A program made the translations under genes and the position numbers. DNA of 64,000 bases from Macrostomum lignano (Eukaryota). The DNA lies in contig NIVC01000038.1 in assembly GCA_002269645.1 (NCBI GenBank), positions 1,054,001 to 1,118,000 on the forward strand, given 5' to 3'. The notes beneath the pieces are model-generated. The model was not told the DNA's origin. It was given only the letters and a program-made list of their open reading frames with translations, and did not search any database. Of the stretch, positions 1 through 55,316 are shown one piece after another (positions within the stretch are counted from its first letter, which is position 1; the number at the start of each line of letters is the position of its first letter).

Positions 1-369
1 TCGCTATTCTGGAGATTTCTGCATCCATCTTGACGTTTGTTGGGGCGAAAGGTAGCTAAGATGACGTCTGCAATCTGATCACATCTAGAGATGAAATCTG
101 GATCCCATTTTTTCGACCCTGAAACAAAGGAGAGCCGTGTTTGGACGAGAAAAATATCAAATACCACGGTCAAGGCTCACCGTGATAAGCACTTCGAGAA
201 GATCATAATGACAATTCTCTTTGATCGTTCTGGCCCATTCACAATCGAGTTCTTAGAAGAAGAGCAGACGATAAATGCTGACTGCTTTTGCGCAACTGTA
301 CAGAAACTCAAGTCGGGCATCGAAAGCAAGCGTCGGTACGGTGAGAAGCCGTACCTTCTGCACTATTAA
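1..369 (+). pseudogene. mariner (Tc1/mariner) transposase fragment
   Basis: LITSRDEIWI (TGDETW-like first Asp motif), then after a frameshift FDPETKE..W, MTILFDRSG..IEFLEEEQTINAD and YLLH. These follow mariner motifs in order. Truncated at 369. Confidence 0.8.
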
Positions 370-381
370 AATAATATTATA

Positions 382-1200
382 ATGGATGAACTAGACGCAA
401 AAGCCTTTGACGATTTGCTAGCCAATTTTACAGTAGACTTGTGTCAAGATGAGGTGGTAACCACCCAGTAGCAACCAAGAGAGGTGGTAGACACCCAACA
501 GAAACAGGTAGAGGTGGTAGACACCCAACAGAAAAAGGTAGAGGTGGTACACACCCCAAAAGAAGAAGCAATATACACTCAACAGAGGTGGTAATCACCC
601 AAGAAAGTGCCAAACCAGTTTTAAAATTGATCATTATTAAAAAGACACATTAATCGGATATTACGAGTATTAACCGCACAGTCTTCACGCTCGTCTAGTG
701 ATACGGAAAAGACAAGCGGAGAGACTGCTAGTCCCTGAAGCCGCACTAATCTGCCAATACCAGGCTGGATCCACACACACGCAGTATGTACCTACGAAGA
801 GGCCAAGACAACAGCAACAGCACTAGCAACATGGAAAGCCAATACTGACCGGTCTAGTTCATACTCACAATGACAATCAATGCACAGCCGCCGCTCCATC
901 AGGTGGCCAGGCTGCAACAGCAGCCAGCGCAAGAAGCCCCACCTGTAGTGTACACCAATCAGCGGCTGGCCCAACAGAAGCTGATGTCGTTCGGCGTGAA
1001 CTACTCAGATGTCCTAGCAGGAATTCCAGGCGCGCAACATAAGACCTACAAGCAATTGATTGGCCAATTAAAAATTTACTTAATGAGATTTGTGCTGGAG
1101 GCGAGCTGTCATATACGCCTCCAATCAATAATGCAATTCGGCTGGGCTTATCAGCAGCTGAAGCTGCGGTATGAGTGTGCTGGACTGGGGCAAACATCAA
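382..1200 (+). pseudogene. decayed unknown ORF homologous to 22753-23832 (Gypsy ORF3-like family)
   Basis: ATG at 382 gives MDELDAKAFDDLLANF, followed by VLKLIIIK. Later SFGVNYSDVLAGIPGAQHKTYKQLIGQLKIYLM and QFGW align with the 22.7-kb ORF. Stops and frameshifts present. Confidence 0.5.
461..600 (+). repeat. about 30-bp tandem repeat (GAGGTGGTAGACACCCAACAGAAACAGGTA) encoding EVVDTQQKQV
   Basis: Four to five imperfect copies visible. Confidence 0.75.
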
Positions 1201-1774
1201 CTGGCCAGTACGACACAGTTTACCGACAGAATTCGATATTAATTAACTGCAAACATAACGAACTGACAAATTTAACGTATGGTGGTACAGTTGCAAAATC
1301 ATCATTATTGCCCACATGCTTTGCTCATTATTACTTGCATGTTATGCTCATTATTACTTACATGCAATTGATGTGGCTGCAGCCTTCTGCTGCAAGCATA
1401 GAGCCGCAGTCACATCTTAGGCACTTCTACAGTCCGCAGCTAGTATCTGGAATAGGAACTGTTCTGCTGCCTCCATGCACTCTAAGCAGCCTTCCTTGGC
1501 GCTGAAAAGTCGCGCAATATGGCGCAATCGAGCCGTCCTAATGAGGCTCATTAACATAGGAAATTAGGAAGTTTAGCCTAGGGTTAGTTAGTGGAAGCCG
1601 CCATAATTGGCGCTTGCCTGTACAGTTGTTGCCTGGCCTGCCACGTACGATAGCTCAGTGTACGCCAGCCTAGTTAGCTGCACTCCTCCCCACACGGCAT
1701 GCGAAAATAAAGAACATAATACGCGTAACTAGATGATAGCAAGAGCGTAGCTGAATCAGTGACATTGAAATCAC

Positions 1775-2463
1775 GTGCGCCTTCAAACCAACGCCATTCC
1801 GGCTGCTACCAAGGATAACAGTTTTTTCCCGAAACCGCTCAAGGGAAGGGGATTTTCTGCGCTGGTCAATCGTGGGACGAATTATTGGAACAATTTCATA
1901 AAAACCATGAGTGCGAAGGCTGGATTGCACAAGCAACACACGAACCACTGTATCCTGTAATTATTTACGTTTAATTTACCTGACTGTGATTAATTTTAGG
2001 CAATGTGTAAATGTTTTACTTCATTTCATTTCATTTATGCTTCATTTACATGTATTTTTCTCACAGGGTAACAAGAATTTGCGACCTGCATTTGCTTGGC
2101 TACAGTGTCAGTGATATCATGTCCGTGACTAGACACAAGTGTGAAAAGAGTGTGCGCGGCTACCTGAGGGTTCAGAGGGATCCAAGCCTGTATCGCGCAT
2201 CGATGGCCGCGCAGGATGCACTTCGCATTGTTCCGGCATCACAGCTGAATACCAGCTTGGTACCAGACAGTCAGTCTGTACAGAATGCAGCGAGTGTCAG
2301 TCAGTTAACACAGTCGCTATCTCTACTAGTGGAATATCCTCAGCGCCAGGTTTCAGTCAGTGCCAGTTTAATTGTCGGTCATGCCAGGTCCAGCATTGAT
2401 GGGTTCAAGTTCTCAGGATGCCAAATCACAAGCTGCACGTTTATTATTCAGCCGAAAGAATGA
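1775..2463 (+). pseudogene. Crypton-type tyrosine recombinase (DUF3504-like) C-terminal part with one intron
   Basis: KTMSAKAGLHKQHTNHCI, GT-AG intron 1957-2066, then VTRICDLHLLGYSVSDIMSVTRHKCEKSVRGYLR and the terminal FSGCQITSCTF motif. Matches the YR HxxR...H...Y layout. 5' truncated. Confidence 0.75.
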
Positions 2464-10322: not shown

Positions 10323-11448
10323 ATGCACTCATCCCGATGCGCCAAGCGCACTGAGCGCTCAGGATCTAGCGACGACGACCGCTACCGTGAACAGGTGTCA
10401 TACTGCTCGGCGCGGGAAGGCCCCCCGATGCGCGCGGCGGGCCAGTTTGAGCGGCCGGCCGAGCCACAGGCAGTCCGCCGCATTCACCCTCGCCTGCGGC
10501 TGCGACAGCGGCCAGGGTCGCCCTCGCTGACGCGCCAGCGTCGTTCGACACCGCTGGAGAGGGAGCCGCTCGCAGCGTCGCAGCGCCGAGCCTTCCGGCG
10601 ACGCCGAGGCCAGAGGCGCAGACCCCCACCTCCCGTGGAGGTCATTGACTTGACTGGCGACGACTCATCGCCCCGGGTGCGACGGCTCCGGACGCTAGAG
10701 CCCCGCGAAAGGACACATCGTGAGGACAGCGCGGACCCGGAGCCGACGGTCGCTGCCCTGAGACGGACGCTCATCCCTGCCCGCCCAACCGAGCGACAAG
10801 GAGCGGGTCCGGGCCCCAGCAGTGCGCAGGCTGCAGCGGCGACTTTTGGAGCTGTCAGCTCGACGCCTACACCGGGACGCCAGCCCCGGTCTACAACGAC
10901 CCAAATTGGCGGACCAAACTTCGGGCTAGTGCCATCGTCACCCGGCCATGACAGCCCGCCCCGGCTCCTGCCGATCCTGCGGCCTGGTGAGGCCCCCACC
11001 TGTGACGCCGAGGTTCAGACCGAAGAACCGGTCCCAGACACGCCATACACCTACACCTGGGCTGACCTGGCCGAAGAGCTCCGCGGCGCCTTCCCGACGG
11101 TGCCCCTGAACTCACCCGCAGGTCCGGCCAGGGTAGCGTCGGCGAAGGAACTCGGCCCGGAGGACCCGGTAGAGGCCGGCGCGGCCTTCTTGGCGGCACT
11201 CTTCGTCGCCGCGGCTCAACGGGGCGAAGAGCCAAACTTCGCGAAGCCTACTTAGACCCGGCTGCGGTCTCTCTCCGACCAGGACCGGCAGGAGGCGGTC
11301 GACCGCGCTGCCGCCCTCGCGGATGACGCCATCCAGGCTCCGGAGTTCCCGACGACCTTGCGCAGCGTGGCCCGACTCGCCGTTCGGTGTATGTCCGGCC
11401 GTACACCGGTACTGCCCGGGAGGCTAGCCAGGTCCCGGAGCTGTTGAA
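10323..11448 (+). pseudogene. G1 ORF3 (non-env, unknown function), one internal stop at 11253-11255
   Basis: ATG directly after the integrase region with acceptor TTTCAG at 10310-10315. The frame continues past the TAG to 11448. Confidence 0.6.
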
Positions 11449-12009: not shown

Positions 12010-13002
12010 TGAGCACTAGTTTAGTGTTAGGTGCCCCCTTTGTCAGCTGTGCCCTGCGCCCTTCTGAGCTGTTGGCTGCCGCTGGCCGCAGCTCTCCCTT
12101 TCCCTCTCCCTCTCCCTCTCCCGCTCCCTCTCCCTCTCCCTTCCCCTTTTTCTCCCCCTCTCCCGCTCCCTCTCTCCCTCTCCCTCCCGTTGTCATTTTG
12201 TCTGCCTGCGATCCCTTCTTCTTTCCCCCTTTTTCCGGTTCGTTTGCGTTCCCAGTGTCTGAGCTTCTCCGCTCAGCCTGTCCTTGATTCATTGTCTGTC
12301 TGGCCACTCTCCCCCTTTTCTTGTGTGGCTGCGTTTGGTCTCTCTGTCCGGCCTGTACTGTAGCGGATCACGTGCCCCCGGCGCTCTGTCCTTTTCTTAC
12401 GAAGCCTTGTGCAATCTTGGGTGTCAGTCTCTAAATTAGGAATAGCGTCCTTCCCTCTCTGGCAGGGGCTCCGCGCTTGCTTCTAAAAATAGAACTGAAT
12501 CACGCCAGGTTGAGCGGCTCAGTGAGAGCGGCCTTGCGAACCATGGCAACCCTTCCTCTCGCTTAACCGCCCTTCGTTTTTGAGACTGGGCTAAGTTTAG
12601 CCCTAACTTATAAGACTCGCGCATCTCGCGCTGGTCCTTGCAAACGCCATCCTGACTTCTGATCTATCATTGACTGTGTCTGAGCTTGTGCTAGACTCCC
12701 GACCAAGCTAACAAGAAACTAGCACAGTTCCTTATCCCCGCACTTGAGCCCGGAAGGACCGCTGACGAGGTGTGCACCGGTGCGAGCTGTCAAATCTGCA
12801 CGGCGTGCTGAGTTCTCGTGTCTCGTTTATTTCGCTCAGCCCGGAGTCTCCCTCATCGAAGGACAAGATCCGAGCGAGCTGGTGGCAGCACTACCTACGC
12901 TACAAGGATCGTTTCTAAGAAACCGCCAGCTAGAGGTCACCGCCCAGCGCTTGGAGACCTACCAGGCCATTTCTAGCCGGCCTCGAAGAAGCCTGTACAC
13001 CA
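12010..13002 (+). mobile_element. Gypsy LTR between G1 and G2 (start approximate)
   Basis: Preceded by a purine tract (GGGTAGAGTGAAG). Contains GCCCGGAGTCTC and TGGTGGCAGC motifs shared with the 38755 LTR, ends ...ACACCA, and is followed by a PBS. Confidence 0.6.
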
Positions 13003-13014: not shown

Positions 13015-15451
13015 ATCCCATTGAAGACTTCTAAACAGCATCGAGCTAAGTACAACCACAGGCAAGACACCTGTACTTCATGTGTCACCAACGGGCTTGA
13101 CTGAATCGCCTGGCTCATTCCAAATGACCATTACTTTGCTCCTAGAGGGATTGAAGCCCCATATTGCGCTCGGGTATATGGATGACATCCTAGTTCATTC
13201 AGTAACCTTTGAGCAGCATCTTGCGCACTTAGAAACAGTGCTGCAGCGCGTAATTGACGCGAAGTTGAAGCTGTAGGCGAGGAAATGTTCGCTATTCTCA
13301 GTTGAGTTGGCTTACTTAGGACATAAGCTGACTCCTGAAGGTGTTAAGACGGATGAGGCGAAACTCGCCGCTATCCGCGATTGGCGAGTGCCGCGCACAG
13401 CCTCGCAGTTGCGCAGTTTTCTAGGCTATAAAAAGCCTACTATAAAGAGTACTATAAAAAGTACATTAAAAACTATTCTAGTATAGCATCGCCATTGCAC
13501 GCTTTAACGCGCAAAACTATCACTAGCTTGTCAAAATTATGGACTGATGAGCATCAACAAGCTTTTCAGGCCCTGAAAGAACAAATTATGTTCTTCAGAA
13601 GTTTTAGCTTATCCTGAATTTACCAGTGATCCTAAGGTGACATTCATCTTGGACACAGATGCTAGTGATATTGGAATTGGCGCATGCTTAGGCCAGATTC
13701 AGTCTGATGGCGAAGAGCATCCTATTGCTTACTTCAGCCGCAAGTTGTCAGCTGCAGAAATGCGCTACACGACAACCAAGAAAGAGTTGTTAGCGATTGT
13801 CGATTCTCTCCGACATTTCCGCTACTATCTACTACGGAAGAAGTTTAAGATTAGGACAGACAATTCCGCGCTTTGCTGGCTACTTCGCCAAAATGAAGCC
13901 ACCGGAATTCTAGGTCGTTGGGTGCAGAGGTTGAGTGAGTTTGATTTCGAGTTGTCCCATAGAGCTGGGAAACTGCACGTCAACGCTGACACGTTGTCCA
14001 GGAAGCCGGAGACCCCGGCCCAATGTTCAACTAGCGCCATGAATGCGCCAGCGGAAGATGCTGCTGTAAAGCGCATCAAGAGTGCCTGCGAGAAATCAGA
14101 CTGGGAAAGAAGCGAGGAGGCCACTGTGAATTCAGCCCACCCGCCAGAAATCCCTCAACACTCAGGATGTGAAGTAGGCGCATTAAGGCCCGACTGCTCT
14201 CCCATGAGCCCGCCTAATGCAACTGATAGTCTAACTAAGACTCCATGGCTCGACTGCTTTCCCATAAGCCTGCCAGGTGTCGCCAAACCAAGTGCGCAGA
14301 ACTCGAATTGCTCCCCGCTGAGCCGTTCTGCTGCAATACCGACTATCTCGAAGGTCAAATCGAATCGATCACTGACCCTGATGTCGAGCAATCCTGCTGA
14401 GATGGGCACTGAAGCGTCGATACGATGTGGATTCCAATCCTGCCTTCGACATGCCAATCAGCAGAGGATGAAGAATTCTGCCAGAGCCAGAAAGGCGCCG
14501 CAGAATTAGCTGCCAGGATGTGAGTGCTCTGATGATGATGATGCAACAGGTTCGGACTGCACGACAGAATCTGAGACCAATCGACAGCCTGATTCGCCCG
14601 ATGCATTGCCGAAGCCTCAGTTGGATTTCGACTCCCACCAGTCACCGTCGCTGCCAAGATGTCGATTTCTGCTGACCGAAGCTCTAGAAGAACCGATTAC
14701 GAGACAGGAGCTGCTTGAAGCGCAGAAGAGAGACCCTGTACTCGCGAAAATCGCTGAGTTGAAGGCGCAGAGTTCGCCGAAACCGTCTCTCGACGAGAGA
14801 CTAAGCATGAGCAAGTAAATGAGAAACCTGCTCGGGTACTATGAGACCCTATGCTTAGATGATGATGGCATTCTAATGATAGATTTCGATGATAATCGAC
14901 CCATTAGATTTGTCTTGCCAAAGGAGTTAGACGCTGCACTAATGCGCGCACTGCATGACTCCCCGCTAAGCGGCCATTTGGGCCAGAAAAAGACTCTGCA
15001 GAGAGTCCAGCAGTTATTCTGGAGACCCGGAATTCACACTGTGGTCGATCGCTATATCGCACAGTGCAGAGCTTGCTTAGAGAGCAAAGCCAGGCGCAAA
15101 GTGCACTTGCCGCCTCATAAATTCCCGGTCGGAGATGTGTTAGACCGCGTACACTTGGATATCATGGGCCCAATCAATCAGCCCAGTGCTGCAGGCCATA
15201 GATATGTCCTAACCTTGTGTGACGCGACGTCGAAGTATCCGTGGGCCTGTGCTCTGAGAAATCAGAAGGCCAAGGCGATTATTAAGGTGATTCAGGAACA
15301 GTTCATCCCAATTTACGGTGCGCCAGCCCAGTTCCATTCTGATCAAGGAACTAATTTTACGGGCACCGCCTTTAATAACTTTTGAAAAATATATGGGATA
15401 AGACACACAGTAACTTGTCCATATAATCCTGCATCTAATGGACCTGATGAG

Positions 15452-18400
15452 CAGTGGTGGGAGTGAGGAGTGCCCTTTTTTTCGCGCCTACGATTTTTTT
15501 TCGCGCCGCAAGTTTTTTTGTGTCAATTTTTTTTGCCATACATTGACTGACTATATAATGTTCAAAAGAGTAACTCTGATTGAAAAAAAACGATTGTTGT
15601 GTTGTTGCAACAGCTTGACTATAATTTAACATCGTAGTTGTAGACAATAGTGCGCCACTCGCACTCGTGGGTCTCGTGTATTGCATTTTATTAGGTCTTA
15701 CAAATGAATTATTTAAATGAAAGTTATTGAATTGCTAAAGATTAAATTCGAAATAATCGTAACTTGCATTTGTTATAATTCAAGCAAGACTAAATCTAAT
15801 ATTATATGAAATCGAAAGCTATATACGAGAGCGTATCTAACTTTGGAAGATGTAATTTTAAGCAAGTAAAAGGCAACTAACATAGCATTAGCCTAAAAAA
15901 ACGTTACGACTAATTGTTCAATATTGTCATTGTCACGCTGTTGTTATCCAGAGCGGAACTTTTTCTGTTGAACGCTTTCTGGCAGAGGGTTCGACAATGA
16001 CTGCTCAATAGCTCGACGCTTGAGCACCGTCTCAGTGATTTTCTCGGCCTGTTTCAGCTTCTTCTTCTGCAGCTTGTCTTGTCTGTGTCGCAGGTCGTCC
16101 AGCTCACGATCTCGGTCCTCCTTCGCCTTAGTCATTTCCAGCAACAGCTTCTGAGCGTCATCCCTCTGCTTCTGCTTCTTCTTTATCTGCTCGTTAGTCT
16201 CCAGAACAGAATTTCCTAAGTCTGTGAATGTCTTGCTTGCGCTTTTCTCGTTTCGAATTTCGGAGAGGACACTCTTCTCGAGCTCTTCCCTCTTCTTGCG
16301 CTCCTCTTCTTGCTTCTCTTCTTCCAGCCGTCGGCGGTACGCAGCATAGGCGCTGTTGCACAGGTTCTGCAACCTAAGCGAGACTGGTAGCGTAGCAGCT
16401 GTCCAACATTTAGCAGCAAGGCAAGAGCGCGCGACAACTAGTGCCTTAATGGTGTGCGCTCCAAGACTGGAGCGCTTCTTTGTAACGACATCATTAAGAT
16501 TGCTGAAAATTCTCTCGACTTCCGCGTTGCCGTGCGGCAAGACGAATAGCACACGTACTATGCGCATAAGAAGTGGGCGATTGCCAACTGCGGCGACCTT
16601 TCCCCAGAAGTTACTAGCCGATTCGGATTCAATGTCTAACTCAGCAATCAGCACATCTTGTTGATGAGCACGAGCCTCAACTCGCAACGTGTCGAGCTCG
16701 CTTGCTGTCATGATCGTCGGTAGCTGCCTGGCAATGGTATCAACCCACTGAACAAACCGATCGTTTGTCTGCTTTTTCGGATCCAGCAGTTGGCAGGCAC
16801 GAAGAGTGGAGCTGCTCAGCGGCAAATATTCAAAGAGTTTCTCTGTTCCCTTTACAAAGAACGCTTTCACCGAAGCTAGACAGGCCTGTTGGTCACTAGC
16901 AGACATCTCAATGAAGAGACGCCTGGCCTGCTCCCCCATGCCGATTTGCAGATGGGGCAGCCAAATCGAACTGTCCTTTAAATCCAGCTTCCAGACTTAG
17001 TCTTCCAGACTACTCCAGGCGGGTAGTTTGACTGGCGAGACAAAGCGCAACAGCCAGCAGCGTGTCAGGTCATTCAGCACTTCGTACAGCCGGAATATTT
17101 GGCAGTCTTCTTGTTGGAACAACAGCTCGAACTTCTGCAGAGGACGCAAAACTTCGACCAAAAATAGAAGAAAAAATTCGACTTTGGGGTCACGAACTTG
17201 GGCCTTGAGTGTGCTAAATTTTGCGCCATGCTCCTTAGTCGCGGAGTCGAAGAAGTACTTTTTTAGAGGCTCTAACAGTCGCAAAACTCGTTCAACTACC
17301 GGCAACAGCTGCAGCCAACGGGTGTCAACTGGCCGAATAAATGCCAGCTTTCGCACTTCATCGAATTCAGTTGCAATGACATGTAAGCGGTCCTTTTCGT
17401 CGAGCGAAAACTTGAAGTGGCAATAGAGGTCGCGCACTAGTGTCTCTACACTGAGACCTAAGTCCGAAGCGTCGCAAGCGTACTTCGCGGCGTTGTGGAT
17501 GTGATGAAGGCTGCAGCCGCCTACATCAATGACATTTCGAAGGTCATCCCGAAGTCGAACTACTACTCCGCTCTTGGAGCCCCGCATGGTGTTGCAGCTG
17601 TCCGACATCACTCCGACACACTTTGACTTGTCGAGGTTGCACTCCGAAATCGTCTGCAAAACAGAAGCAGAAATAGCTGCGGCAGTTGTAGAAGACAGCA
17701 TAGGCAAATCTATGCAGACTGATTTGGCCTTCATGGTTTTTTCGGTACTATTTTCTGAAAGATATCGCAGAAGGATGCCGAGAAACTTTCCATTCTTATT
17801 GGCTTCATCAATTTGCACTGAAAAAAAGCCTGAGTCTGGTGACTTGCTGTTGCTGCAAACATCGGCCAGAATAACCTCTTTCAGGTAGGGAAAGAGGCCG
17901 TGAGACACGAGGTAAGAAATCTTCGATCGATGAAGCTGCATTGCAGTCGGAAACTTGGAGTCGGGACAAATCGCACGTAAGTCCTCAACGGCGTCATCCT
18001 CAGACTCAAAGCTACGATTTTTAATAATAATCCTTGTGATAAAACGAATTTCCGAGACTTTCGCAGAGTGACTTAAGTCGTTTGGCTCGCAAGACCCGCC
18101 AATACTCTGATCAGCCTGGCCTGCGGATGCCCCTGCCATCAACATCTTGAGGGAGCTGCTGCTCCGACGGGCCTTCGAAATTTCGCGATGATTTACTGCC
18201 TGCGAGTGGCTCTTAAAGTTTGTAATGCCACTTCGAAAAACAAAATCGACATTACATCAGGCACAATCTGCTTTAAAGTCGTCTCGCTTACGTGCCCAAA
18301 GACCAATGACGTCACCATTATAGTCGAGCTTATTTAACCAATCGTTGTTCCATTGAACACGCTTCGCCATGCTTAATTTTAATAACAATTGTCAGTAGCA

Positions 18401-18822
18401 CTGGAAGGAGAAAATGGAAGAGATGCTGTAGTGAAAACTATTAGTCTATGAGTGTTGTCTTAACTTGGTATTCAATTCTTAGTCACAACGGATTACTGAT
18501 TTCCAAGAATAGAATAAGAATAAGTTTCGGTTCTATTTCTAAAAATGCTAAATAAAACTAAGACACTTAAATGTCTGATAAAACTACAAAATTCTTCACC
18601 ATAACACAAGTTTATTTAAACAACAATAAGTTTACAAGTGAAAGTACAGCTGTATGAGACACTGGGGGTGTGGCAGTCACTGGCAAAGTAAAGCAAAATC
18701 AGCTAACATTTTTCGCGCATTGAGCATCAAAAAAATCGCGCCTCGCCTCAGAAATCGCGCATTCGCGCCAATTATCCCGAAATTCGCGCCAGGCGCGAAT
18801 TCGCGCCTCACTCCCACCACTG
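15452..18822 (-). mobile_element. hAT DNA transposon, 3371 bp
   Basis: Perfect 17-bp TIR CAGTGGTGGGAGTGAGG; 8-bp TSD CTGATGAG at 15444-15451 and 18823-18830; TTCGCGC subterminal repeats. Confidence 0.95.
15944..18370 (-). pseudogene. hAT transposase (808 codons, two in-frame stops)
   Basis: N-terminal C-x2-C..H-x4-H finger, FSVQIDE, MSDSCNTM, CSLHH (CxxH), TRWL and PHGNAEVERIFS. Stops at 18257-18259 and 16997-16999; no frameshift. Confidence 0.9.
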
Positions 18823-19744
18823 CTGATGAGAACCTGAATCGGAACATTAAGTCTGTGCTGACTGTCTGTTAGAGACAAAGCACAAAGATTGGGCACACTA
18901 TCTGCCAGCTTGCTTAATAGCGCTGCGCACGGCTGTTCACTCAGTGACAGGATACAGCCCGCATTTTCTGATGTTTGGCCGCACATTCAATTTGTCAATT
19001 GAAAACGAATTGCGCCACTCACCTGAGTATCAGAATTTGCCAGATTATGTGCGCCAATTTGAAAGTAGACTGAGTGAGGCGACCGCCCTAGCAAAAGAGC
19101 GAATTCGTGCTCAGCAGGATTTGCGCGTAGATCACTTTGCCGGAAAACCGCAAGTAGATCCGCTGCAGCCAGGACAATTGGTGTTCTTGGCGAATCCAGT
19201 GCTAGAGGCAGGTGAAGCGCCAAAGTTCCATAGACCTCGAAAGGCCGTCTATGAGGTGATCGAGCAGAAGGGCGAGCTGGTCTACAAGATCCGTCGCCAA
19301 AGGCGAGAAGCGCCGTGCTCGAAAGGAGGTGCTTGTAGTGCACCGGAAGAATCTGCTCCCCGTGCCAACTGCCGACTATCTCCCACAGGTCGCAAAAGTA
19401 AAGCACCCGATGCACCGACAGCGTTGTCATACGGCGCCACAGGCTGCTGCCACGCTGAGTTCTGCACCGAGGAGTCCGACGAGGACGGAGACGAGAGCAC
19501 GGTCGACGTGAATTGGGCGCACCAAGCTGCAGCCGCCGCTGCGCTGTGGTCGACGCGCTCGCCGCTGCAAGCGCGATCGCGAGGCGCCAACGCTGAAGTT
19601 GTCGACCAAGGAGCTGAAACGGAGAGAGGAGATTTTGCGCCCATTGAGGTTGCGCAGTTGCCGTCACGCAGCCCAAGCCCACGTGAATCTCCTACTCCCG
19701 CGCTCGCATCTTTCGCCGGAAATGATTACCTTCCAGCGACAGCA

Positions 19745-20627
19745 ATGTCACAAGAAATGCAAGCCACCCAAAGAATTGCTACCCGGCCCAACCCGCCGTC
19801 CGGCACTAAACCTAAAACGGGCTCTGTGGCCGCCCGAGTAGCCGAACTTAAGGAAAATGGTGGTCTGCGCCTAAAGAGCGTAGTCACGAGACCACTCCCT
19901 GAGAGAGTGCCCGAACTTACGTTCGTCGAAGACGTGGTTGATTTACAGGCTCCGAGCTCGCCAGTCGAAGGTAAAAACTCGCCGCCTCGCCTTAACCGGT
20001 TGAGGGCGGCTGAGGAAGTTGATTTCAGGCAGGAGCGACGAGCCGAAGGCTCGCGCCCGAATGCCCTTAGCGCAGCCCATCGGGCGCGTTCGCCGATGGA
20101 AGGGAGCGACCCGCAAGGGCGCCCAATCCGACCGCGGAGACGTGGCAGAAGAGCCGGTCGGTTTCGCGGGAGAATAGCCGCCAGCTGTTCCTCAGCCTTC
20201 GCCCGCAGCCGCTGCTGTGGCTGTCGCCACACACCTTGCTGCAAGGAACGTTCAACCTCCTGGCACTCCCCCAGAGCATGGCCGACGAGCGCCGCTACCT
20301 TCGCGCGCTGACTCCTCCACCACGACTGACGATCTGGCTGCCTGGACGAGGCAACGACAGGCTACGGAAGTTGCTAGCCTGATTCATCTCGCTGGCCTGC
20401 GTGGCCACCTTTTTGGAGGACTACCGCCAGACCTACAGGTAGCTCTCCGAGCTGAGAGTCGCAGCTACAAAGAAAGTCTGTTCCAATGGGCAGCCAGTAT
20501 CGCTGCCCAACGGCTAGCCTCGGAATCGTTCGACCGACACGCGGCTGAGCTAGTAGCTCGCAGACTCGCGGCCGAGCTTGGGCATCTCGATTTGACTCCG
20601 CCGCTGAAAGCCGTCCTGCGGGAGTGA
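19745..20627 (+). pseudogene. G2 ORF3 (non-env, unknown function), frameshifted
   Basis: Acceptor TACCTTCCAG ends at 19736, ATG at 19745. RLKSVV and VVDL motifs; helical C-part in the 20217-20627 frame. Confidence 0.6.
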
Positions 20628-20949
20628 ATGACTAAGCCTTGAACGAAGTTCATTGTTCTTGACGGAACTGTCTAGTGAATCGCTCAAATCCCGAGTCCGC
20701 ATTTGATACTTCATTGTTAATCAGGTTCTAGTACAGGCCAATTGGGCCTCAAGTCAGCATTTTTTTCAGCCAATTAATTCGATCCCAGGAACTTTTCAAA
20801 TTTTATCAATTCACCATGCTTTTCTCTATAGGTTTTACCTTGCGCAGTTAATCAGGTGACCTTCCGGCATTTTACAATCAATATTTTCTTCGCTTTTCTA
20901 CCCTTGACTCAAATACCTATATATAATTCTGCATGCTTGCCAACTAGCT

Positions 20950-22400
20950 AAATAGAAAGAGCCAATAGAAAAGGGAGGCCAGCCCAGTATGCCAACTGCA
21001 GAGCTTCAAGATAAGGGAAGCCAGGCGGCAGAGGCAATTCGCAAGGGAAGCCAGCCCAAGAAGAAGACAAGAACTAGAACGACTGAGAAGCTATGTGAAC
21101 AAGAAGTAGAATCAGCATCATCAGATGAAGACGACCAAATCAATTGGCAATGCAAGCTCCGTGATGGAAATGAATCAGTAAGAGGAAGTGACTTAGAACT
21201 AGGAGCAGAAGTAGAAATTAGGGAGGAAGGAAGTGAAGGAGAGAGTACACAGCGTGATAGCTCAGAGGAAGAGATTGAGGAAAGTGAGAAGGGAGAGGAA
21301 TCAGAGTGTAGTGACTGGCTGCTAGCTGGTTATTCAGCAGCATTCACTAGCTTTCCCTAAGAGTGCTGTGGTCCGCTGCACAGTAGCTCAGTTCACCTGA
21401 TCTAGTGAGAGAGATACCCTGTGCTGGGCCTAAGTGTTTACTGCCCGATGACTCATCGCCTCAGCAGGCGTGGGCAGCCACACTTAATGTCTTCCCACTC
21501 GCGCTGAGGAGGCGTAGCAGGATGACTCATCACTTGCGCGGAGTGTAATGGCTGCCTAGAGGGAGTAAACAGGATGACTCATCCGCCCAAGTTCTATTTT
21601 TAGCACAGAAAAGCACGTGACTGTGCACGCACACTGTGCGTGGCCACTGACCTTGAGTCACGCCACTGCCGCGTGACCGGGTTGCCTTATTTGGAAGTTG
21701 GCCTTGGATCACGCGTCGCTCGCATGATTCTGAGGACCAAACAAGGAAGTTTCACGCGCTCACCGCATGAAACTAACGTGACTTTTGGGGGTCCGCTCGG
21801 CAATAAATACGAAGCATCTGCGAGCAATTTTCTCCAGATCAGGTCGTCCTGCCTGGGCTCGACCGGATTTGTCTCTCTGCCCCCGAGCTCTCCTCTCTCA
21901 TTTCAGGTTTTACAGGTTTTCAGGTTCGAGCAGCATTCTACTAAGACGATCGACTGTCGAGACATTTTCAGATTTGCCTTTTCTCCGAGCGACTTTTTTT
22001 TCAGGTGACGGATAGACAACTCTGCCGACGCGTCGAGTCCACACACCAAGGTGGCAGCAACCCTACCAAGTCACGGCTAACGTTTTAGGTTCATTTTCAG
22101 GCAAATCCATAGGTAGTACAGCGGTGCTATCTAGCTACTTCAGGAGCAGCGGGTTCTATTTCTAGGAACATCTTCAAGAACCCGAGGAGTAGTAATACAA
22201 GAGCTTGAGCACGAGAAAGAGAAAGGAAGGAGGAGGTTGCACGCGAGCACAGTGAGTCAAAGGAAGAGATATCGCATGCTGAGCAGAGTAAAGGACAGGA
22301 TGACGTAATACCAGCTAAAAGGTATAACACGCGCAGTCAGACCAAGCCCCCAAACAGATGTCAGTGCTATCTGAAAAGGCTAATCTCTGTGTGGAGCCTA
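20950..22400 (+). mobile_element. probable degenerate acidic C-terminal tail of another Gypsy pol, interrupted by an LTR-like block (about 21307-22119)
   Basis: Acidic frames on both sides ending RYNTRSQTKPPNR, typical of Gypsy integrase tails. The middle block starts TGTAGT, ends AGTACA and has AATAAA and GGTGGCAGC. No TSD found. Confidence 0.35.
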
Positions 22401-22499
22401 TTAGAGGGACTAAAGTTCTGAGTCAGGGAAGAATTGTTAGTGAGGGTAAGGCACAGGGCAAGCAAACAAGTGGGACTTCATTGGGTGAGGGAAGGAAAT

Positions 22500-22660
22500 C
22501 AGATCAGCCAATTAGAAGTCAGCTAGTGGGAAGACCAGGAGTGGTCAACTGGGAAATCAAGGCGGTCAGCCAATGAAAATTCAGCTTTTGATTAAATGAA
22601 CTGATGGGCAAATCAAAACAAACAACGCCTGGGGTGGGGTGCCACGCCTATATAAACAAA
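22500..22660 (+). promoter_or_regulatory. Pol II promoter-like cluster: CCAAT boxes, GC box, TATA
   Basis: CCAAT near 22508 and 22570, GGGGTGGGG 22631-22639, TATATAAA 22649-22656, about 100 nt before ATG 22753. Confidence 0.55.
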
Positions 22661-22752
22661 CACTCAAGGCAAGAGGAAGTCAATTATAGTCGTGCTAACA
22701 GCTAATTAACCGTTTTGGTCTGATTAACCATTCTGGATTGCAATTCTCCGTA

Positions 22753-23832
22753 ATGGACGACACAATTGACATCATGGCAGAGGATGATATCCTCGATAAG
22801 ATTCTAGCAGACATCGAAGTAGGTAATGCAGAAGAAATTGGAGCAAATGTGATGGCAGCAACAACGACGGCGACGTCAAGCAGCAGCGCCGTGATGGTAT
22901 CTGATAATAGCGCCGTGGTGGCATCGAATATGGCGGAAGACGAGAAAGATCGCCTGGCCAAGCGATTAAAGTCTGTGATCATCAAGGGGTCGTCTACGGA
23001 GGCAGAAGGCGCTCAGTTGGCTAAGCGGCCCGCTCTGGGGAGTCAGCCTTTGACGCCGCACAACCTGAAGGCCCGGGCACAGCTGCTCAACGATCAGGCC
23101 AACAAGCCGGTGCCTGTAATCCTGGCTATGAGGCGAAAGCCGCAGGGCGCCAAAAGCGCGATCTGCCTTGCCAGTTAGTACCGGCCAATTTAGCCGAGGC
23201 CATTGGTAGCATCTGGCGGGCGAGGGCAACAATCAGCGGCAGCAGCAGCAGCCAGCCACCGGAGGCCAGCAGCAGCAGCCAGCCACCGGAGGCCAGCAGC
23301 AGCGGCAGCCGCAACATCAGCAAACGGCGGGCAGCCTGTAACAATGTTGGCAGCAGCCCCGAGGCCACCAGCGCCGAAGCAGCAACAGCCTTAAAACGCG
23401 GCAGCACGGGGGTCAGCCAGCACCGCATTGGCCGTAGACCTCAGCTTAGGTGCTGATTTTCCGGCAGTCCTTGACAGAATCCTGAGGGGACAGCACGACC
23501 AACTGAAATGCTTCATTAAGATGCTGAAGGGACATCTAATGTGAATGGCGTATTTACACACTGATCGACCCACTCCATGCCAATGCACACAAGCTAAGCC
23601 GGTGTTAGGCCTGCTAGTGCAACAATTCGACTTGGAGTCGCGAATTGCAGCATGGCGCAGAGCGGCGCACTATGCGCTGCACGATCTGGCGTAGGCAGGA
23701 CAAACCTATCATCGTCTACTCCTGCAGATCGAAATCTGCTGGATGGCGGACCAGCTCGGCTGGCCTGTATCACAATCAGCTGCCAGAAGAATTCGAGCTG
23801 GAGCGAAATTGAGTAACTATTTGACTATTTGA
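22753..23832 (+). pseudogene. unknown ORF3-like gene, about 360 codons with 5 in-frame stops
   Basis: One frame throughout, with stops at 23176, 23191, 23392, 23542 and 23692. RLKSVIIK motif; C-domain homologous to 987-1185. Confidence 0.6.
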
Positions 23833-24524
23833 ATGAACTTTTGCTATTGCTAATTTTCTTTGTTTTGCCAACTTGCTTTTATTTTGCATGAATTTTCTGT
23901 GCCAGTGCTTATTTCTTTGTGAACTAGCTTTTATAAAGTTTTTTTTTGAACTAGCTAATAATTACATGCCCAATTTTTATTTTCTTCTTTTATGTGTACA
24001 TACTCATTTTCCTTGGTGAATAATTGTTTGGTGTATTGGCGACTCAGGGTTTTTCTATTGTTTATATATTCCCTTGCAATCACATTTACTATTCTTTATT
24101 CTTTGTGCCATTATTAAATTGCTTAGTTTTTGATGATTATGTACCGTTGTGTTTTTTCATTATTATATACTACTAAATTATAATTTTGCTCACTTAAAAA
24201 TTTGCAAAATAATATACCCATAATATTCCCAATATATTCCCATCTATTGTTCTATTGAATAATTTTAATATTCTAATAAAACCTGCTGCTAGAGGCATAT
24301 TATATATTTTACTTGCTTGCAGTATAACAGGGATATATATAACATAGGTGTACCTGTATGTAAATTGCGATATGCTCAATTTTTCGTTAACTATTAACTG
24401 ATTTCTGACTAATGCTGTCTGACTAACTGATTATTTGCTAACTGAAACTGACTGGCATTAAGACGAAAGTTAAGACTAAAGTTAAAAGTTTAAGTTTCTG
24501 TCAAACCCTGTAACGCTGAAAGCA

Positions 24525-28310: not shown

Positions 28311-28544
28311 GCCCAATCTCATAATCTCACAACTCTTCTACAGCTCCAGAAATCAGCATCAACTCGAGCTAAGCTGATGCCGATGCCACCGGATGAGGAT
28401 ACTGGTGAGTTATTATTTCGCCCACCCACATTAGCTAACTCATCCAATCATCCGCTCACTCACACTACACACTCATTTATGATTACTCATTAGTAGCCAC
28501 AAAATCATTTCAACACACTCATTCTTCCCCAGAACCAGCATTGC

Positions 28545-28710
28545 CAGAGCCAGAGTCACAACCAGCGGCGTCAGAGCCAGGGACAGCAGAGCCAGAGTTA
28601 CAACCAGCGGCGTCAGAGCCAGGGACAGCAGAGCCAGAGTTACAACCAGCGGCGTCAGAGCCAGGGACAGCAGAGCCAGAGTCACAACCAGCGGCGTCAG
28701 AGCCAGGGAC
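28545..28710 (+). repeat. 42-bp coding repeat (EPESQPAASEPGTA x4)
   Basis: Four near-identical units. Confidence 0.9.
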
Positions 28711-29839
28711 AACAGAGTCATTAGAGTTAATCGAGCTCGAGCCAACGACTATCTCAAAGGGGTCTGTGGCAGTTGATGCGGCGGCCTCAGCTGCAATGCC
28801 AACACTCCTAGATGTAGAGTCAGCGTCAGAAGGGTACCCACAGTTCCTTAATTTTGGTCAAGGCCCAATCAAGAAGCTGGGAGAAAAAGTGCAGGCATGC
28901 ATCGGTCACAATCTGAGCAGTCCTGATGGCCTCGCCTTTTTGATGCTGACCGTCCTGCGGGCGTCTGGCGGCCTGGAGGCAAAGATGACAGCACAGGCGG
29001 TGGAACTAGTGGCTCTTCGCAATGAAGTGGCGGGTCTGCGCAGTGAAGTTACTCGCCTCTCTGCTGCCTCACTGGATAATGAGCCAGTCGGTCCGCCAAC
29101 AAGTAATTTCTGGCCAATTTCTTCTTGGTCGGATTACATAGTTTGCCTCGTCGCCGGAAGAGTTGCTCGTCGAATTGGTTAGTGACATTCGCCTCGAAAG
29201 AATTAACCAACATTCACTCACCAATTCATTCATTGATCCACCCAATGACTCATTCATTCATCAATCAATCAATCAATTTATTCTTTCACTCATTCACTCA
29301 TCCATGAGTCATGAACCATAACTCAACCCCTTAAGCCCACCATTTACAAAAACGCAGAGGGCAGCGCTGCTTTGCTGTAAATCAGCAAAATGGACCATGA
29401 CCATCAGGGCAATGATGGACTTCGCCTTGGCAGCCGAAATGCAAAGGGCGATCAATTTTAACGGTCGCGAGATGGCAGAAAGAGCTCGCGCTGCTGGCTG
29501 TCCGACATCTCTAACGGACGACATGCTCGTCTTTGAAAAAGCTTTTCTTCGGTGGTTTCAATGTGAGAATAGTTTTGTGATATACTGCGTTTAGAAACTG
29601 CATGCAGTAAAAGTAGCCACTTAAAAAACAATGCTGCCATGATTTAACTTGCAAAAAATTTAAAATGCACCCATTCCAGACGCTATAAACAGCATCTACG
29701 GGGACTTCACCCTCCAGCCACAGATGAGACCAGCCCACGTTCCATCAATGGTGGAAGTGCGGAAAACATGTATGAACATGCTGAAGCATGCCATTGACCG
29801 CGTGACACCTCGATCTCACAAGAAGATAACAACAGCCAC

Positions 29840-30430
29840 AAACAGCCAGCAGCAAACGCCAGGGCGACAGCAACAGCAGCAGGAAGCGCTGGAGCAGCAG
29901 CAGCAAACGCCGGAGCAGCGGCAGCAGCAGCAGCAAACGCCAGAGCAGCGGCAGCAGCAGCAGCAAACGCCGGGGCAGCGGCAGCAGCAGCAAACGCTGG
30001 GGCGGTAGCAGCAGCAGCAAACGCCGGGCCAGCGTCAGCAGCAGCAAACGCCGGGCCAGCGGCAGCAGCAGCAAACGCCGGGCCAGCGGCAGCAGCAGCA
30101 AACGCCGGGCCAGCGGCAGCAGCAGCAAACGCCGGGCCAGCGGCAGCAGCAGCAAACGCTGGGCCAGCGGCAGCAGCAGCAAACGCCGGGCCAGCGGCAG
30201 CAGCAGCAAACGCTAGGCCAGCGGCAGCAGCAGCAAACGCCGGGCCAGCGGCAGCAGCAGCAAACGCCGGGCCAGCGGCAGCAGCAGCAGCAATCGCCGG
30301 GCCAGCGGCAGCGGCAGCAGCAATCGCCGGGCCAGTGGCAGCAGCAGCAGCAATCGCCGGGCCAGCGGCAGCAGCAGCAAATGCTGGGGCGGCAGCAGCG
30401 GCAGAAAACGCCGGGGCAGCGGCAGCAGCA
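29840..30430 (+). repeat. 24/27-bp coding repeat (QTPGQRQQQ)n
   Basis: More than 20 units of CAGCAAACGCCGGGCCAGCGGCAG. Confidence 0.9.
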
Positions 30431-30859
30431 GTGCAGCGTAGCCGCCCTGCTGCCTAGTATCCATAATGCAAGAAGAGCCACTCTTGGCAGGTTTGAAGCG
30501 CTGCCAGACCTCGAACCTTGGGCCAAAAAGATGAAGATCTCAGAGAAGAAGAGTGAATACAGCAGCAGCTCGAGCGAAGACTCACGAACTGATTTTCTAA
30601 CTGAAAATCTAACTGATGATGACCTTGACAGCGATTTTGACTAATCAATACGATTGTTCAATTGCTCACTTGATCACTTATTCACCACGATAGTTTTATG
30701 CATGAAGTTCGGTTTATATATTCTAGGGTTACCAATGTGAAAATTTCGAGGGACAAAATAAAGTAGCTCGTATATTCGAAAAGCAAGAGCAGCTATGAGA
30801 AATGAAAAATATATGAAAAAGTACGTTGGGGCGACCGTACAATTAGTCCGCCTTGCTGA

Positions 30860-31544: not shown

Positions 31545-31580
31545 CTGCCTCTACTGACTCTACCCCACAGCCAGGAAGAC

Positions 31581-34500
31581 GGTAGAATCCTTGGAATTTT
31601 CCGGCGCAAATCAGCAATTTGCCGGCGCACGGCGCACACTTCACTGCGCCGCGCGCATGGACTCGGCGCATCGGCGCATGGCTCGGTGCATCGGTGCATG
31701 GCTCGGCGCATGGCGCACAAAGTACGTCAGTGTACGTGACAATATAATAATGAATAATAAAAAAACGTATATTAAATGTCAATCAATCAATAAAATAAAC
31801 GATAGTCGTTATTTCCAGTGTTGTTTCTACTTCAAATTTCATTAATCGTAGCTTTTAACGATTGCAAAGCAACGAGCAATGGAGCAAGTTGGAGAATCTT
31901 CAGTTCAGTTCAGTATGAGTAAGTCAAGGTCAAGTCACTCAAGTGACAGTGACAGTGATCGTGATGCAGATTTTGAAGTTGGAGTTACGGGCATGGCTAC
32001 TACCATCAGTAAAAATGCCAAAGGTGAGTCGTCCAACTCCAAGTGGAGTCAAATTCCAAATTTCCAATGATGACTATCAATTATCAATATCGAATATCAT
32101 ATATCATGATATGATATTCATGACTCCAATGACCAATGTTACAATTACAAAGTTACTTAATTACTTACTGTCTGACTGACTCTTAAGTGTTACTGTTATT
32201 GTTAATTTTTACTTTTAGTGTTTACTATTATGACTTATGTGAATGTCTATTATTCGTAATTAAATTAGTTACTTATAAAGTTATTATTTTATCACTTTAA
32301 TGTTTAGACTTTAGTTGTTAAAAACTCTCACTCTTGCTTGAGTTGTCTTGAATATTGGATAGAAATTTAGAATTGGATAGAATTTATATAATTATATAAG
32401 ATTATATAAGAGTAAGATTAATAGTATTTTAATATAAATATAAGTTAATAACAAATAAAACTGAAGGGCATTTTTTAATTTAAACTAGCAATAGAAGTCA
32501 CTTGTGACTTGTCTTGATAGCCCCATACTCTGATACTTAAGGCCTAGCCTAGGCCTAGGCCTAGGGGTAATTGAAGAATTTTTTTCTGGGAAGCACAGCA
32601 CAGGCTGCATAGCCACTGAGCCACACAGGCCATACATACATACCCATGGCCATGGCCATATGGGCCATATTTTCAATAATTGAAAGGGCATAGCCTATGG
32701 CTATGCGCGGCGCGGCGCGCGGGTAATGTGCCTAGGCAATAGCGGTAGCGACATATTTTTGTAAGAAGGTTTGTTAAAATTCAATTAATTTTGTGTACCT
32801 GTAAGAGTATAGAGACTAAAGAGTGGAGTTAAGTGTAGCGGGCTTCAGCTTAGGCTAAAACTAAGGCTGAAGCCAAAAATCTATTAGAAATTGAAATTTT
32901 TCAAATTTTCAACAAAATTTTCAATAGCAAAAGCAAATCACCATTGTAAATATAATTCTAGGCTACTAGTGCTAAGGCTAGTCTGGCTAGACTACTTAAA
33001 GGCCATTCGGCCATGCCCATAACAATGATAATAGCCCACTGGGGATTTGGATTTGGGGGTCAATAAAACTGGAAGCTCAAAGACTAGTATAAACAATTTA
33101 AGCCATTATTTTATTTTTTAGCTATTCAGAAAGAGGAATGGAGTTTCCTGACTAAGTCTGGTGGTGTGGAAGCACCTGGCACTGGCACTTCTCACAGAAG
33201 CTCTGCAGCAGCAGCAGCATCAAAACGGAAAGGGTCAGCATCAACAAGCACTGCAACTGCTGCAGATACAGAGCCATCAGCAAGATAGCCTCAGATCTTT
33301 TACTGCATAAATTGCCTTCAGAATGACAAAAAAGATCTCGAAAGTACCAATTTGTTCGAGGCAATCCATCCTTCAAAAAGTGACATATCGCAACAATCAT
33401 GACACTGTTGATGCTCACAATGTGAGCTTTGGAACCGCTGACCTTGAAATTGTCCAGAGTCTTCTCATGGCCAGGGAGGAGAAGAGTAAAAGAATTGATT
33501 GGAAGCGATCTCATTCTGCAGCCAATTCTGATGCTGCAGCCAATTCTGCTGATGCTGCTGCCAAATCTGCTGATGCTGCTGCCAATTCTGCTGATGCTGC
33601 AGCCGTTGCTACTGTCACTGATGCTTCCTCTCTCCAGCTGTTTGTTCAGCTGCCACGTTCAGACTTATTATTATCAGGTAAGTCATAGAAGCAGCACATT
33701 AATCTTTTATTGAAAAATGAATTAAGTTAAGTAATTCTTACTGTAGCTATGGCATGATTCACTGATCAAAGAGATATGACCACCTACTTTTCATATTCTC
33801 TAATGTCTATTAAACAGGTGCAGCAGCCGTTTAATCAACGCCAGCTATTTTTGAGCCGCGGCGTTCCACTAGTGCATCTGCTCCACCTGGAGCTGTCAGT
33901 GTTGAACAATTTGAGTCGCTATGTGGTCTAGTAAATAATCAATCGCAGCAAATTTTGCACCTGACTGAAGCCCTAAAAAGTCTTTCTGCTGCTGTAAAGG
34001 CTGGTAGCCATAGTGCAGCTGCTGCTCCTAGTCTTCCAGTTGATGAGTAGTACACTATGATTAAAAGTGCCAAAAATATTGCCAAGTTGCTGGACCATCC
34101 ATTCGTTAGTATGGCATCATGCGGCGTCGACCACATCATTTTCTGTGAACCTTGCTTCGCTAGGTGTCGCAAAGTTCCGAGTCTTCACCTGCCAGTGGAA
34201 TGTTCTATAGAAGAAGCTTTTCTAAACATGTAAGTCAGGTAACATGGCGAAGCAGATGCTGAGATGTAGAACCTAATACAGTAACACTAACACGCTACAA
34301 TATATTGACATAAAATCCTCTATAATTTAACCCTCATAATTATACAGGAACCCTTGAAGAAAGGTTCTCTCAGCACTGGTCTGTTAGTTTTATCAACAAC
34401 CATGCAGCAATACCACAGCAACCATTCGAAATTCTGCCACTTTTGGGCAATTGTCACAGATCACTTTTTGGGTGTTGCCAGCAAGGAACACTCAAACGCT

Positions 34501-37500: not shown

Positions 37501-37626
37501 AGTGTATTTTTCTTGGCGCATGGTGCACAAGTAATTTTTTTTCTCGGCGCATGCGGCGCACAACAAAAATTTTGATGGATGTTATTCTGGCGCACACGCT
37601 GCACCTTCCTGACCATGGACTCTACC
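31581..37626 (+). mobile_element. hAT-like DNA transposon (element B), about 6 kb
   Basis: Imperfect 14-bp TIR (GGTAGAATCCTTGG / GGTAGAGTCCATGG) and GGCGCA subterminal repeats at both ends. No clear TSD. Confidence 0.6.
31915..37028 (+). pseudogene. intron-rich DDE transposase of element B (about 7 exons), decayed
   Basis: LTCDKST (D), FVGDGQY (D), CWDAAH (DxxH) and EAIVETYY (E); N-terminal zinc finger; GT-AG introns; many stops. Confidence 0.7.
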
Positions 37627-39630: not shown

Positions 39631-39632
39631 AT

Positions 39633-39642
39633 TGGTGGCAGC
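39633..39642 (+). promoter_or_regulatory. primer binding site, tRNA-Leu type
   Basis: TGGTGGCAGC, 2 nt after the LTR end. Confidence 0.8.
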
Positions 39643-45450: not shown

Positions 45451-45454
45451 CATT

Positions 45455-46860: not shown

Positions 46861-46872
46861 GTGGGGGGTAAG
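46861..46872 (+). promoter_or_regulatory. polypurine tract
   Basis: GTGGGGGGTAAG abutting the 3' LTR, after a T run. Confidence 0.8.
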
Positions 46873-55255: not shown

Positions 55256-55316
55256 CCATAATTTTTTTTGTCTTGGCGTTAAAAAGCTTTAATTAAAAAA
55301 AACTCTACTCTCTAAA

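What the first reader, a model, noticed from the sequence alone, without database searches (positions are those of the whole stretch)
22753..23832. Unrecognised protein family present twice (382-1200 and 22753-23832)
Seen: SFGVNYSDVLAGIPGAQHKTYKQLIGQLKIYLM (987-1086) aligns with SLGADFPAVLDRILRGQHDQLKCFIKMLKGHLM (23443-23541). QFGW/QLGW, the acidic N-termini (FDDLLANF vs LDKILADI) and LKLIIIK/LKSVIIK also correspond. The ORF track splits both genes, so the homology is hidden. Inference: the 22.7-kb copy follows an integrase-tail-like frame and precedes a T-rich UTR, so it may be another ORF3-slot gene.
Basis: partly seen in the sequence, partly recalled or inferred. Interest (0 to 1): 0.7.

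Follow-up and report, generated by a model that had tools for sequence, protein, structure and literature searches.

The report
Dead copies of orphan transposon gene
Two broken, anciently diverged copies of a protein gene with no known family lie among jumping-gene debris in an animal genome, and are most likely an extra gene once carried by a retrotransposon.

Summary
Copy B (22753-23832) is one frame with 5 internal stops; copy A (382-1246) has stops, frameshifts and a deletion. Two C-terminal blocks match: 13/34 identical residues (20 of 5000 shuffles reach the score) and a frameshift-split block (score 75; shuffles max 41). Third codon positions are saturated (0.25), so these are old paralogues. 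The QFGW/QLGW pairing is mis-registered and the LKxxIIK match is chance-level. No Pfam, NCBIfam or PDB family and no fold match; the only relative found is a deleted copy inside a Macrostomum lignano gene model. B has no membrane helix, so it is not env. It has a CCAAT-CCAAT-TATA block upstream and a T-rich tail with AATAAA. The 'integrase tail' is unproven: it is half of an acidic frame split by a solo LTR, and the nearest integrase already has its own ORF3. Both 3' flanks weakly resemble the neighbouring Gypsy UTR/LTR. Best reading (0.5): a decayed soluble accessory gene of Gypsy-type elements, expressed from an internal promoter. No intact copy was seen; function is inferred.

The parts
22753..23832 (+). 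Copy B: 359-codon pseudogene in one frame, internal stops at 23176, 23191, 23392, 23542, 23692; acidic N-terminus, Ala/Gln/Pro-rich middle, about 130-residue helical C-domain
   Evidence: 14 and 22 stops in the other + frames and 10-14 in the - frames; 11 of 2000 base shuffles have 5 stops or fewer
23440..23778 (+). Conserved C-domain of B shared with A; predicted all-helical at low confidence
382..1246 (+). Copy A: more decayed paralogue with stops, frameshifts (near 1119 and 1175) and about 100 nt less than B between the two conserved blocks
   Evidence: gap between blocks 10 nt in A, 111 nt in B
22506..22655 (+). Candidate internal promoter of B: AGCCAAT at 22506 and 22568, TATATAA at 22649, 104 nt before the ATG
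   Evidence: 2 of 11 TATATAA on the + strand have two GCCAAT within 200 nt upstream; consensus match only
23833..24348 (+). T-rich 3' tail of B, AATAAA at 24275, LTR-type 9-mer at 24340
21307..22199 (+). Solo LTR (TG...CA, 4-bp target duplication AGAG) inserted into the acidic frame upstream of B
   Evidence: summed depth about 100 times the flanks and a contig joint 21299 to 22213 in run X8
20956..21306 (+). 5' half of an acidic low-complexity frame (ATG 20989), preceded by a second CCAAT-CCAAT-TATATAA block (20736-20926)
   Evidence: no relative among 360 candidates
22204..22418 (+).
   Evidence: not significantly like the G1-G3 integrase tails
1291..1583 (+). 3' flank of A with weak likeness to the G3 3' UTR end (1291-1378) and to the G3 LTR 5' part (1445-1583); LTR-type 9-mer at 1552
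   Evidence: 0 and 2 of 300 shuffles; weaker against real tiles
175..366 (+). Mariner transposase piece, cut off about 15 nt before A's ATG, so A's upstream region is lost
   Evidence: Pfam PF01359 E 3.3e-8
1770..2460 (+). 5'-truncated tyrosine-recombinase-like (Crypton-like) piece with an apparent intron, downstream of A
   Evidence: translation with motifs recalled from Crypton/DUF3504; Atlas rank 6, score 0.90, PF00589 on 25% of members; no Pfam hit: a lead only

Best explanation
A and B are dead, old paralogues of a lineage-restricted accessory gene of Ty3/Gypsy-type LTR retrotransposons, lying between pol and the 3' LTR. In a live element the gene would be transcribed from its own internal CCAAT/TATA promoter as a short unspliced mRNA with a T-rich 3' UTR, and would give a soluble protein of about 360 residues: a short acidic helix, a long low-complexity linker and a helical C-domain. 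It is not an envelope. The most likely job is regulation in trans of the element's own expression or RNA fate: acidic activation-type or adaptor end plus a helical interaction domain, like the accessory regulators of complex retroelements. Shown: homology, old divergence, decay, orphan status in the databases searched, no membrane helix, promoter-like motifs. Inferred: the carrier element, promoter activity, and the function.
For: Homology; identity by codon position 0.55/0.62/0.25 over 76 aligned codons, 21 of 31 identical residues on different codons. A third, internally deleted copy sits inside an unrelated Brix gene model, as expected of a dispersed repeat. Diverged contigs cover 20981-21306, 22213-22532 and 22429-22941. 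All recognisable neighbours are mobile elements; three Gypsy integrases are followed by an orphan frame and a T-rich tail. B's tail and the G3 UTR are tied-best tiles for each other (64 among 410 tiles, 67 among 396). A's flank matches the G3 UTR end (0 of 300 shuffles) and LTR start (2 of 300) and is the best non-LTR tile for the first 238 nt of the G3 LTR. TAACATAGG occurs 8 times (0.37 expected): 5 in LTRs, 1 in pol, 1 behind each copy. Peak 19-residue hydropathy 1.27. Family profile against the G3 ORF3 C-part: 3.1 bits, 38 of 3000 shuffles.
Against: No integrase core abuts either copy; G2's ORF3 slot is taken. The 'tail' is not significantly like any integrase tail and its upstream half found no relative. 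The flank likenesses are weak and partly compositional: an unrelated tile at 32001 ties with B's tail, A's LTR score is 40 against 39 for the next tile, and with the contiguous UTR+LTR query both flanks score 44, below several unrelated tiles; B's tail against the G3 UTR gave 20 of 300 shuffles. The 9-mer was chosen after seeing it (17 of 1000 shuffles, 60 of 2310 tile pairs). B's candidate LTR start does not begin TG, and 8 of 38 AATAAA have a TGT[AT] 60-73 nt later, B's not among them. Pairwise tests against G1-G3 ORF3 are all chance-level (10 comparisons under 2 matrices; 12), and the profile hint is 1 of 7 candidates. The codon-position pattern is partly built in by aligning on protein. 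G1-G3 ORF3 have no such TATA block. No functional evidence exists.
Confidence: 0.5

Rival explanations
1. The gene is a passenger or accessory gene of a DNA transposon (Crypton-like tyrosine-recombinase element or hAT-type element), or of a non-autonomous multi-gene cassette in which each small gene has its own CCAAT/TATA promoter.
For: A is followed within about 520 nt by a recombinase-like piece on the same strand; B is followed within about 700 nt by a spliced transposase-like gene start at 24526. Two promoter-like blocks in tandem before two orphan frames.
Against: The two copies have different DNA-element neighbours; the recombinase piece is 5'-truncated and has no counterpart near B (self-search). 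No convincing inverted-repeat/8-bp duplication pair encloses B, while the same scan finds 15452-18822 and 31565-37618. A diverged contig of the downstream gene starts at 24386, not upstream of B (contig starts are weak evidence).
Confidence: 0.22
2. A lineage-specific host gene family (intronless orphan), whose pseudogenes were trapped in a transposon nest.
For: Ordinary polymerase II promoter motifs, ATG, T-rich UTR and AATAAA; summed depth over the ORF is near that of exact single contigs (25-101 in X1); contigs of runs guessed to be RNA cover it.
Against: No intact gene model among 1.84 billion representatives (1 hit, a chimeric deleted piece) or in two word searches; all three copies seen are broken; no host gene was recognised around either copy.
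Confidence: 0.16
3. It is the ORF1/gag-like first gene of another retroelement (DIRS/Ngaro, Penelope or LINE), driven by a 5' promoter, whose enzyme genes were lost.
For: TATA promoter right before the ATG; low-complexity N-half with a helical C-domain; a recombinase-like piece behind A.
Against: Both copies are followed by T-rich non-coding tails, not by an RT frame; no zinc knuckle, gag or ORF1 Pfam hit; no capsid-like match stands out (low-confidence model, so inconclusive).
Confidence: 0.1

Closest known systems
Non-envelope ORF3s of bdelloid rotifer LTR retrotransposons (PMC5408684; passages read)
   Same: Family-specific extra gene after pol, typically a separate transcription unit.
   Different: Those are GDSL, DEDDy, coiled-coil or transmembrane ORFs expressed from spliced messages; this one has no Pfam hit, no membrane helix and a promoter-like block of its own.
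Tor env of Oikopleura with internal promoter Penv (PMC4402516; passages read)
   Same: Third gene transcribed from a promoter in pol or in the gap after pol.
   Different: Tor Env is a transmembrane glycoprotein and its promoter was mapped by RACE; here there is no membrane helix and the promoter is a motif match only.
CERV of C. elegans Cer1 (PMC10309623; abstract and outline read)
   Same: Novel soluble accessory protein of a Gypsy-class element; a model for the inferred job (control of element RNA).
   Different: CERV comes from a spliced mRNA; no sequence comparison with CERV was made here.
ORF3 frames of G1-G3 in this window
   Same: Orphan, low-complexity N-part with a C-terminal ordered part, T-rich tail; no Pfam family.
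   Different: They abut or overlap the pol end with no TATA block; similarity to A/B is not significant pairwise, and a weak profile hint concerns G3 only.

Membership tests
Gypsy 3' accessory ORF (ORF3 slot) | Lies directly downstream of a pol integrase | tested here: inconclusive
   No integrase core adjacent; tail frame not significant; nearest integrase has its own ORF3. Both copies are in rearranged context.
Gypsy 3' accessory ORF (ORF3 slot) | Followed by 3' UTR, polypurine tract and a 3' LTR | tested here: inconclusive
   T-rich tails and weak UTR/LTR likeness; no purine run of 8 or more behind either copy; no paired LTR.
Gypsy 3' accessory ORF (ORF3 slot) | Linked to gag-pol in other full-length copies | not testable with these tools
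   No genome held; contigs too short; no loci in viral or metagenome contigs.
G1-G3 ORF3 protein family | Significant protein similarity | tested here: inconclusive
   Pairwise chance-level; profile 3.1 bits, 38 of 3000 shuffles for G3 only.
env / fusion glycoprotein | Transmembrane anchor and hydrophobic signal | tested here: not met
   Peak 19-residue Kyte-Doolittle mean 1.27 in B, 0.89 in A's main frame.
Gag / ORF1 | Capsid or zinc-knuckle domain, followed by RT | tested here: inconclusive
   No Pfam hit and no RT downstream, but the fold model is too poor to exclude a capsid fold.
Crypton or hAT passenger gene | Enclosed by the element's termini | tested here: inconclusive
   No convincing TIR/TSD pair around B; Crypton termini were not tested.
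Known protein family (Pfam, NCBIfam, PDB sequences) | Profile or sequence hit above cut-off | tested here: not met
   0 Pfam families at E 0.1; best NCBIfam E 0.11; best PDB sequence E 0.064.

The most novel reading that the evidence does not exclude
A flatworm Gypsy lineage carries a cassette of two or more non-envelope accessory genes after pol (acidic frame at 20989, then B), each with its own CCAAT-CCAAT-TATA internal promoter, and B encodes a new helical-domain trans-regulator, remotely related to the G3-type ORF3: a complex-retrovirus-like regulatory layout in an invertebrate LTR retrotransposon.
Probability: 0.15. Interest if true: 0.65.

Novelty: new member of a known kind. Interest (0 to 1): 0.36.

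Why it matters
Extra ORFs of LTR retrotransposons are a known source of new proteins (env, nucleases, RNA-export factors), and most have no assigned function. An orphan family that was conserved at protein level while synonymous sites saturated would add a new accessory domain. If the internal promoters and the tandem layout hold, it would extend the few known cases of LTR-independent accessory expression, in an animal where transgenic promoter tests are routine. As it stands, both copies are dead and the carrier is unproven, which limits the interest. It also flags a gene-model artefact: a piece of this family is fused into a Brix-domain UniRef entry.

Tried and rejected
No genome was held, so no genome-wide search was possible. 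Word search with B's C-domain: 0 of 301 candidates; longer proteins: 1 of 7999 scored, the same Brix model; 'shorter' was not run. Acidic frame: 0 of 360. Viral and metagenome contigs: 0 of 1 and 0 of 138 pattern matches confirmed. B was not compared in the ESM Atlas; G3 ORF3 there gave a best score of 0.75, uninformative. AlphaFold without alignment: mean pLDDT 42.9 (whole) and 46.1 (C-domain); VIA best Z 7.0 (rmsd 3.4, 79 aligned), none at 8 or more of 48,161, generic helical hits; BFVD 0 matches at E 0.001: no fold assigned, none excluded. No RNA holder on record; contigs of runs guessed to be RNA cover B but show nothing about expression. Stop read-through or another code rejected: three stop types occur in B while the G3 pol runs 1483 codons open. 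Sequencing error rejected: contigs of X1, X8 and X11 match 22654-23269 with 0 other letters and the rest with 3-5. Splicing round the stops: only one donor-like and one acceptor-like site in B, which could not remove the last two stops. The bacterial promoter scan is irrelevant; a CCAAT pattern is only slightly enriched window-wide (58 against 45.5). My first AATAAA-to-LTR control had a faulty pattern that missed G3; the redo does not support B. My first tail comparison used the wrong frame, redone. Five short window motifs were absent from the 5 supplements of PMC12801592, which align only six families. Five paper searches listed no description of this protein; a thesis, Repbase entry or subscription paper could hold one. 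Earlier findings: none. No tRNA genes.

Full report
Setting. The window is an animal-type, transposon-dense stretch; no genome is held for it. It contains an intact Gypsy element G3 (38755-47748; LTRs 876 bp, 99.5% identical; gag, pol with RT, RNase H and integrase; a 275-codon orphan frame after pol), two decayed relatives G1 (integrase 8932 on) and G2 (13070-20627, integrase split by a hAT at 15452-18822 with 14/14 inverted ends and an 8-bp duplication), further hAT-like elements, a mariner piece and satellites. The only database relative of B is labelled Macrostomum lignano, so the window probably comes from that flatworm or a close relative (inference).

Observation. B reads in one frame from ATG 22753 to the stop at 23830 with five internal stops; the other five frames have 10-22 stops, and 11 of 2000 base shuffles have five or fewer. 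A starts at ATG 382 and is broken by stops and frameshifts. A frameshift-aware alignment finds a second block, A 1096-1219 against B 23653-23778 (6/8, 6/19, 6/15 identical in three frames), score 75 against a maximum of 41 in 60 shuffles and 42 in 78 + strand tiles. The blocks are collinear; A lacks about 100 nt between them. Over 76 codons, identity by codon position is 0.55/0.62/0.25 and 21 of 31 identical residues use different codons: an old split, not a recent duplication, though aligning on protein favours this pattern. QFGW/QLGW is mis-paired, LKxxIIK is chance-level (878 of 5000), and the acidic N-termini are borderline (80 of 5000).

Relatives. Pfam gives nothing for B, A or G3 ORF3; NCBIfam and PDB sequences give nothing significant. 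phmmer over 1.84 billion representatives gave 1 hit, P0003 (E 2.9e-26), a 738-residue Brix-domain model in which residues of about 270-392 match two separate parts of B (48% over 112 and 78% over 36), that is, a copy with an internal deletion fused into an unrelated gene prediction. Word searches found nothing more. Folding without an alignment was poor (pLDDT 43 and 46); the C-domain is predicted as six helices, and fold searches gave only generic helical matches. There is no membrane helix.

Context of B. Upstream lie AGCCAAT at 22506 and 22568 and TATATAA at 22649; only 2 of 11 TATATAA on the + strand have two GCCAAT within 200 nt, and the other (20920) precedes the ATG of an acidic frame at 20989. 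That block, however, overlaps G2's T-rich tail, which resembles G1's (1 of 300 shuffles), and the two blocks are not alike in sequence (124 of 300). Between them sits a solo LTR, 21307-22199, TG...CA with a 4-bp duplication, at about 100 times the summed depth of its flanks; a contig of X8 joins 21299 to 22213, so the site exists without it. Its motif recalls Gypsy integrase ends (from memory), but it is no closer to the three tails here than shuffles, and the near half has no database relative. G2's own ORF3 occupies 19.4-20.6 kb, so B is either a later gene of G2 or part of another element. Downstream come a T-rich tail, AATAAA at 24275 and, from about 24.4 kb, a spliced transposase-like gene (identified by eye). 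Contigs from three runs match B almost exactly, so the stops are genomic; diverged contigs cover the flanks and the 5' end (depth is not copy number).

Context of A. A mariner piece (PF01359) ends about 15 nt before the ATG, so the upstream region is gone. Behind A, 1291-1378 resembles the end of the G3 UTR (0 of 300 shuffles) and 1445-1583 the 5' part of the G3 LTR (2 of 300), out of 11 comparisons. Against real tiles the LTR match is best of the non-LTR tiles but by one point, and the joint query does not single out A or B. A 9-mer of the G1/G3 LTRs recurs behind both copies (17 of 1000 shuffles, 60 of 2310 tile pairs; chosen after the fact). Further on is a truncated tyrosine-recombinase-like piece, a lead for the DNA-transposon rival.

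Relation to G1-G3 ORF3. All pairwise tests are chance-level. A small profile of the family scored G3 ORF3 above 199 of 200 shuffles, one of seven candidates, and its C-part above all but 38 of 3000 (3.1 bits): a hint, not a result.

How it most likely works. Taking the context together, I favour (0.5) a soluble accessory gene from the 3' part of a Gypsy-type element, transcribed from an internal CCAAT/TATA promoter, acting in trans on the element's expression or RNA through an acidic end and a helical domain. The likeness of the acidic, hydrophobic N-terminal helix to activation motifs is recalled, not tested. Rivals: passenger of a DNA element or promoter-bearing cassette (0.22), host orphan family (0.16), ORF1 of another retroelement (0.10).

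Known systems. Rotifer LTR elements carry diverse, family-specific ORF3s, usually from spliced messages (PMC5408684, passages). Oikopleura Tor elements express env from an internal promoter (PMC4402516, passages). Cer1 encodes the export factor CERV (PMC10309623, abstract and outline). The M. lignano LTR survey (PMC12801592: passages, first part of Results, supplement list, supplement 1 and a motif search of all five) classifies 137 families, and the word 'ORF' does not occur in its main text; its family consensus set was not available to me and could settle the carrier. B works like these accessory genes at best; it is not shown to belong to any of them, and it fails the env test.

Verdict. 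A real, previously unnamed (in the databases and five paper searches used) protein family, dead in every copy seen; probably a transposon accessory gene; carrier and function open. New member of a known kind; interest 0.36.

Noticed in passing
window 38755-47748: Intact, recent Gypsy element G3 (LTRs 99.5% identical, 4-bp duplication TTCA) with a 275-codon orphan ORF3 overlapping the pol end; no Pfam, NCBIfam or Atlas match.
   Followed up: partly
window 10275-11252, 19400-20627, 45455-46279: The three ORF3 frames are not detectably alike, yet each has a short hydrophobic-acidic stretch (VIDLTGDD, DVVDLQ, LIIDLGG) that recalls SUMO-interacting motifs (recalled, untested).
   Followed up: no
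window 1770-2460: Crypton-like tyrosine recombinase C-terminal remnant with an apparent intron at about 1950-2066.
   Followed up: partly
window 31565-37618: hAT-like element (11/14 inverted ends, perfect 8-bp duplication) nested in the 3' end of a related element whose gene seems to start at 24526 and is split by an LTR insertion from about 26.2 kb.
   Followed up: partly
window 15452-18822: hAT with perfect 14-bp inverted ends and 8-bp duplication inside the G2 integrase; transposase has one in-frame stop.
   Followed up: yes
window 12025-13002: Probable LTR between G1's T-rich tail and a primer-site-like TGGTGGCAGC before G2's RT; unrelated to G1's 5' LTR, suggesting a recombinant tandem.
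   Followed up: partly
window 28439-29179 and 29664-30644: Further orphan low-complexity frames (28-nt-scale and 27-nt repeats) inside the gag-bearing insertion at 26.2-30.7 kb; the family profile does not match 28439-29179.
   Followed up: partly
window 23247-23323: A 27-nt in-frame repeat unit of B is absent from contigs of three runs: length variation or assembly collapse.
   Followed up: no
P0003 (UniRef100_A0A1I8H9T0): Brix-domain gene model is chimeric: it includes a deleted copy of this family before the Brix domain.
   Followed up: yes
window 53450-63400: Large satellite arrays, with 24-nt and 23-nt periods among them; the 24-nt array gives long open frames on both strands.
   Followed up: no
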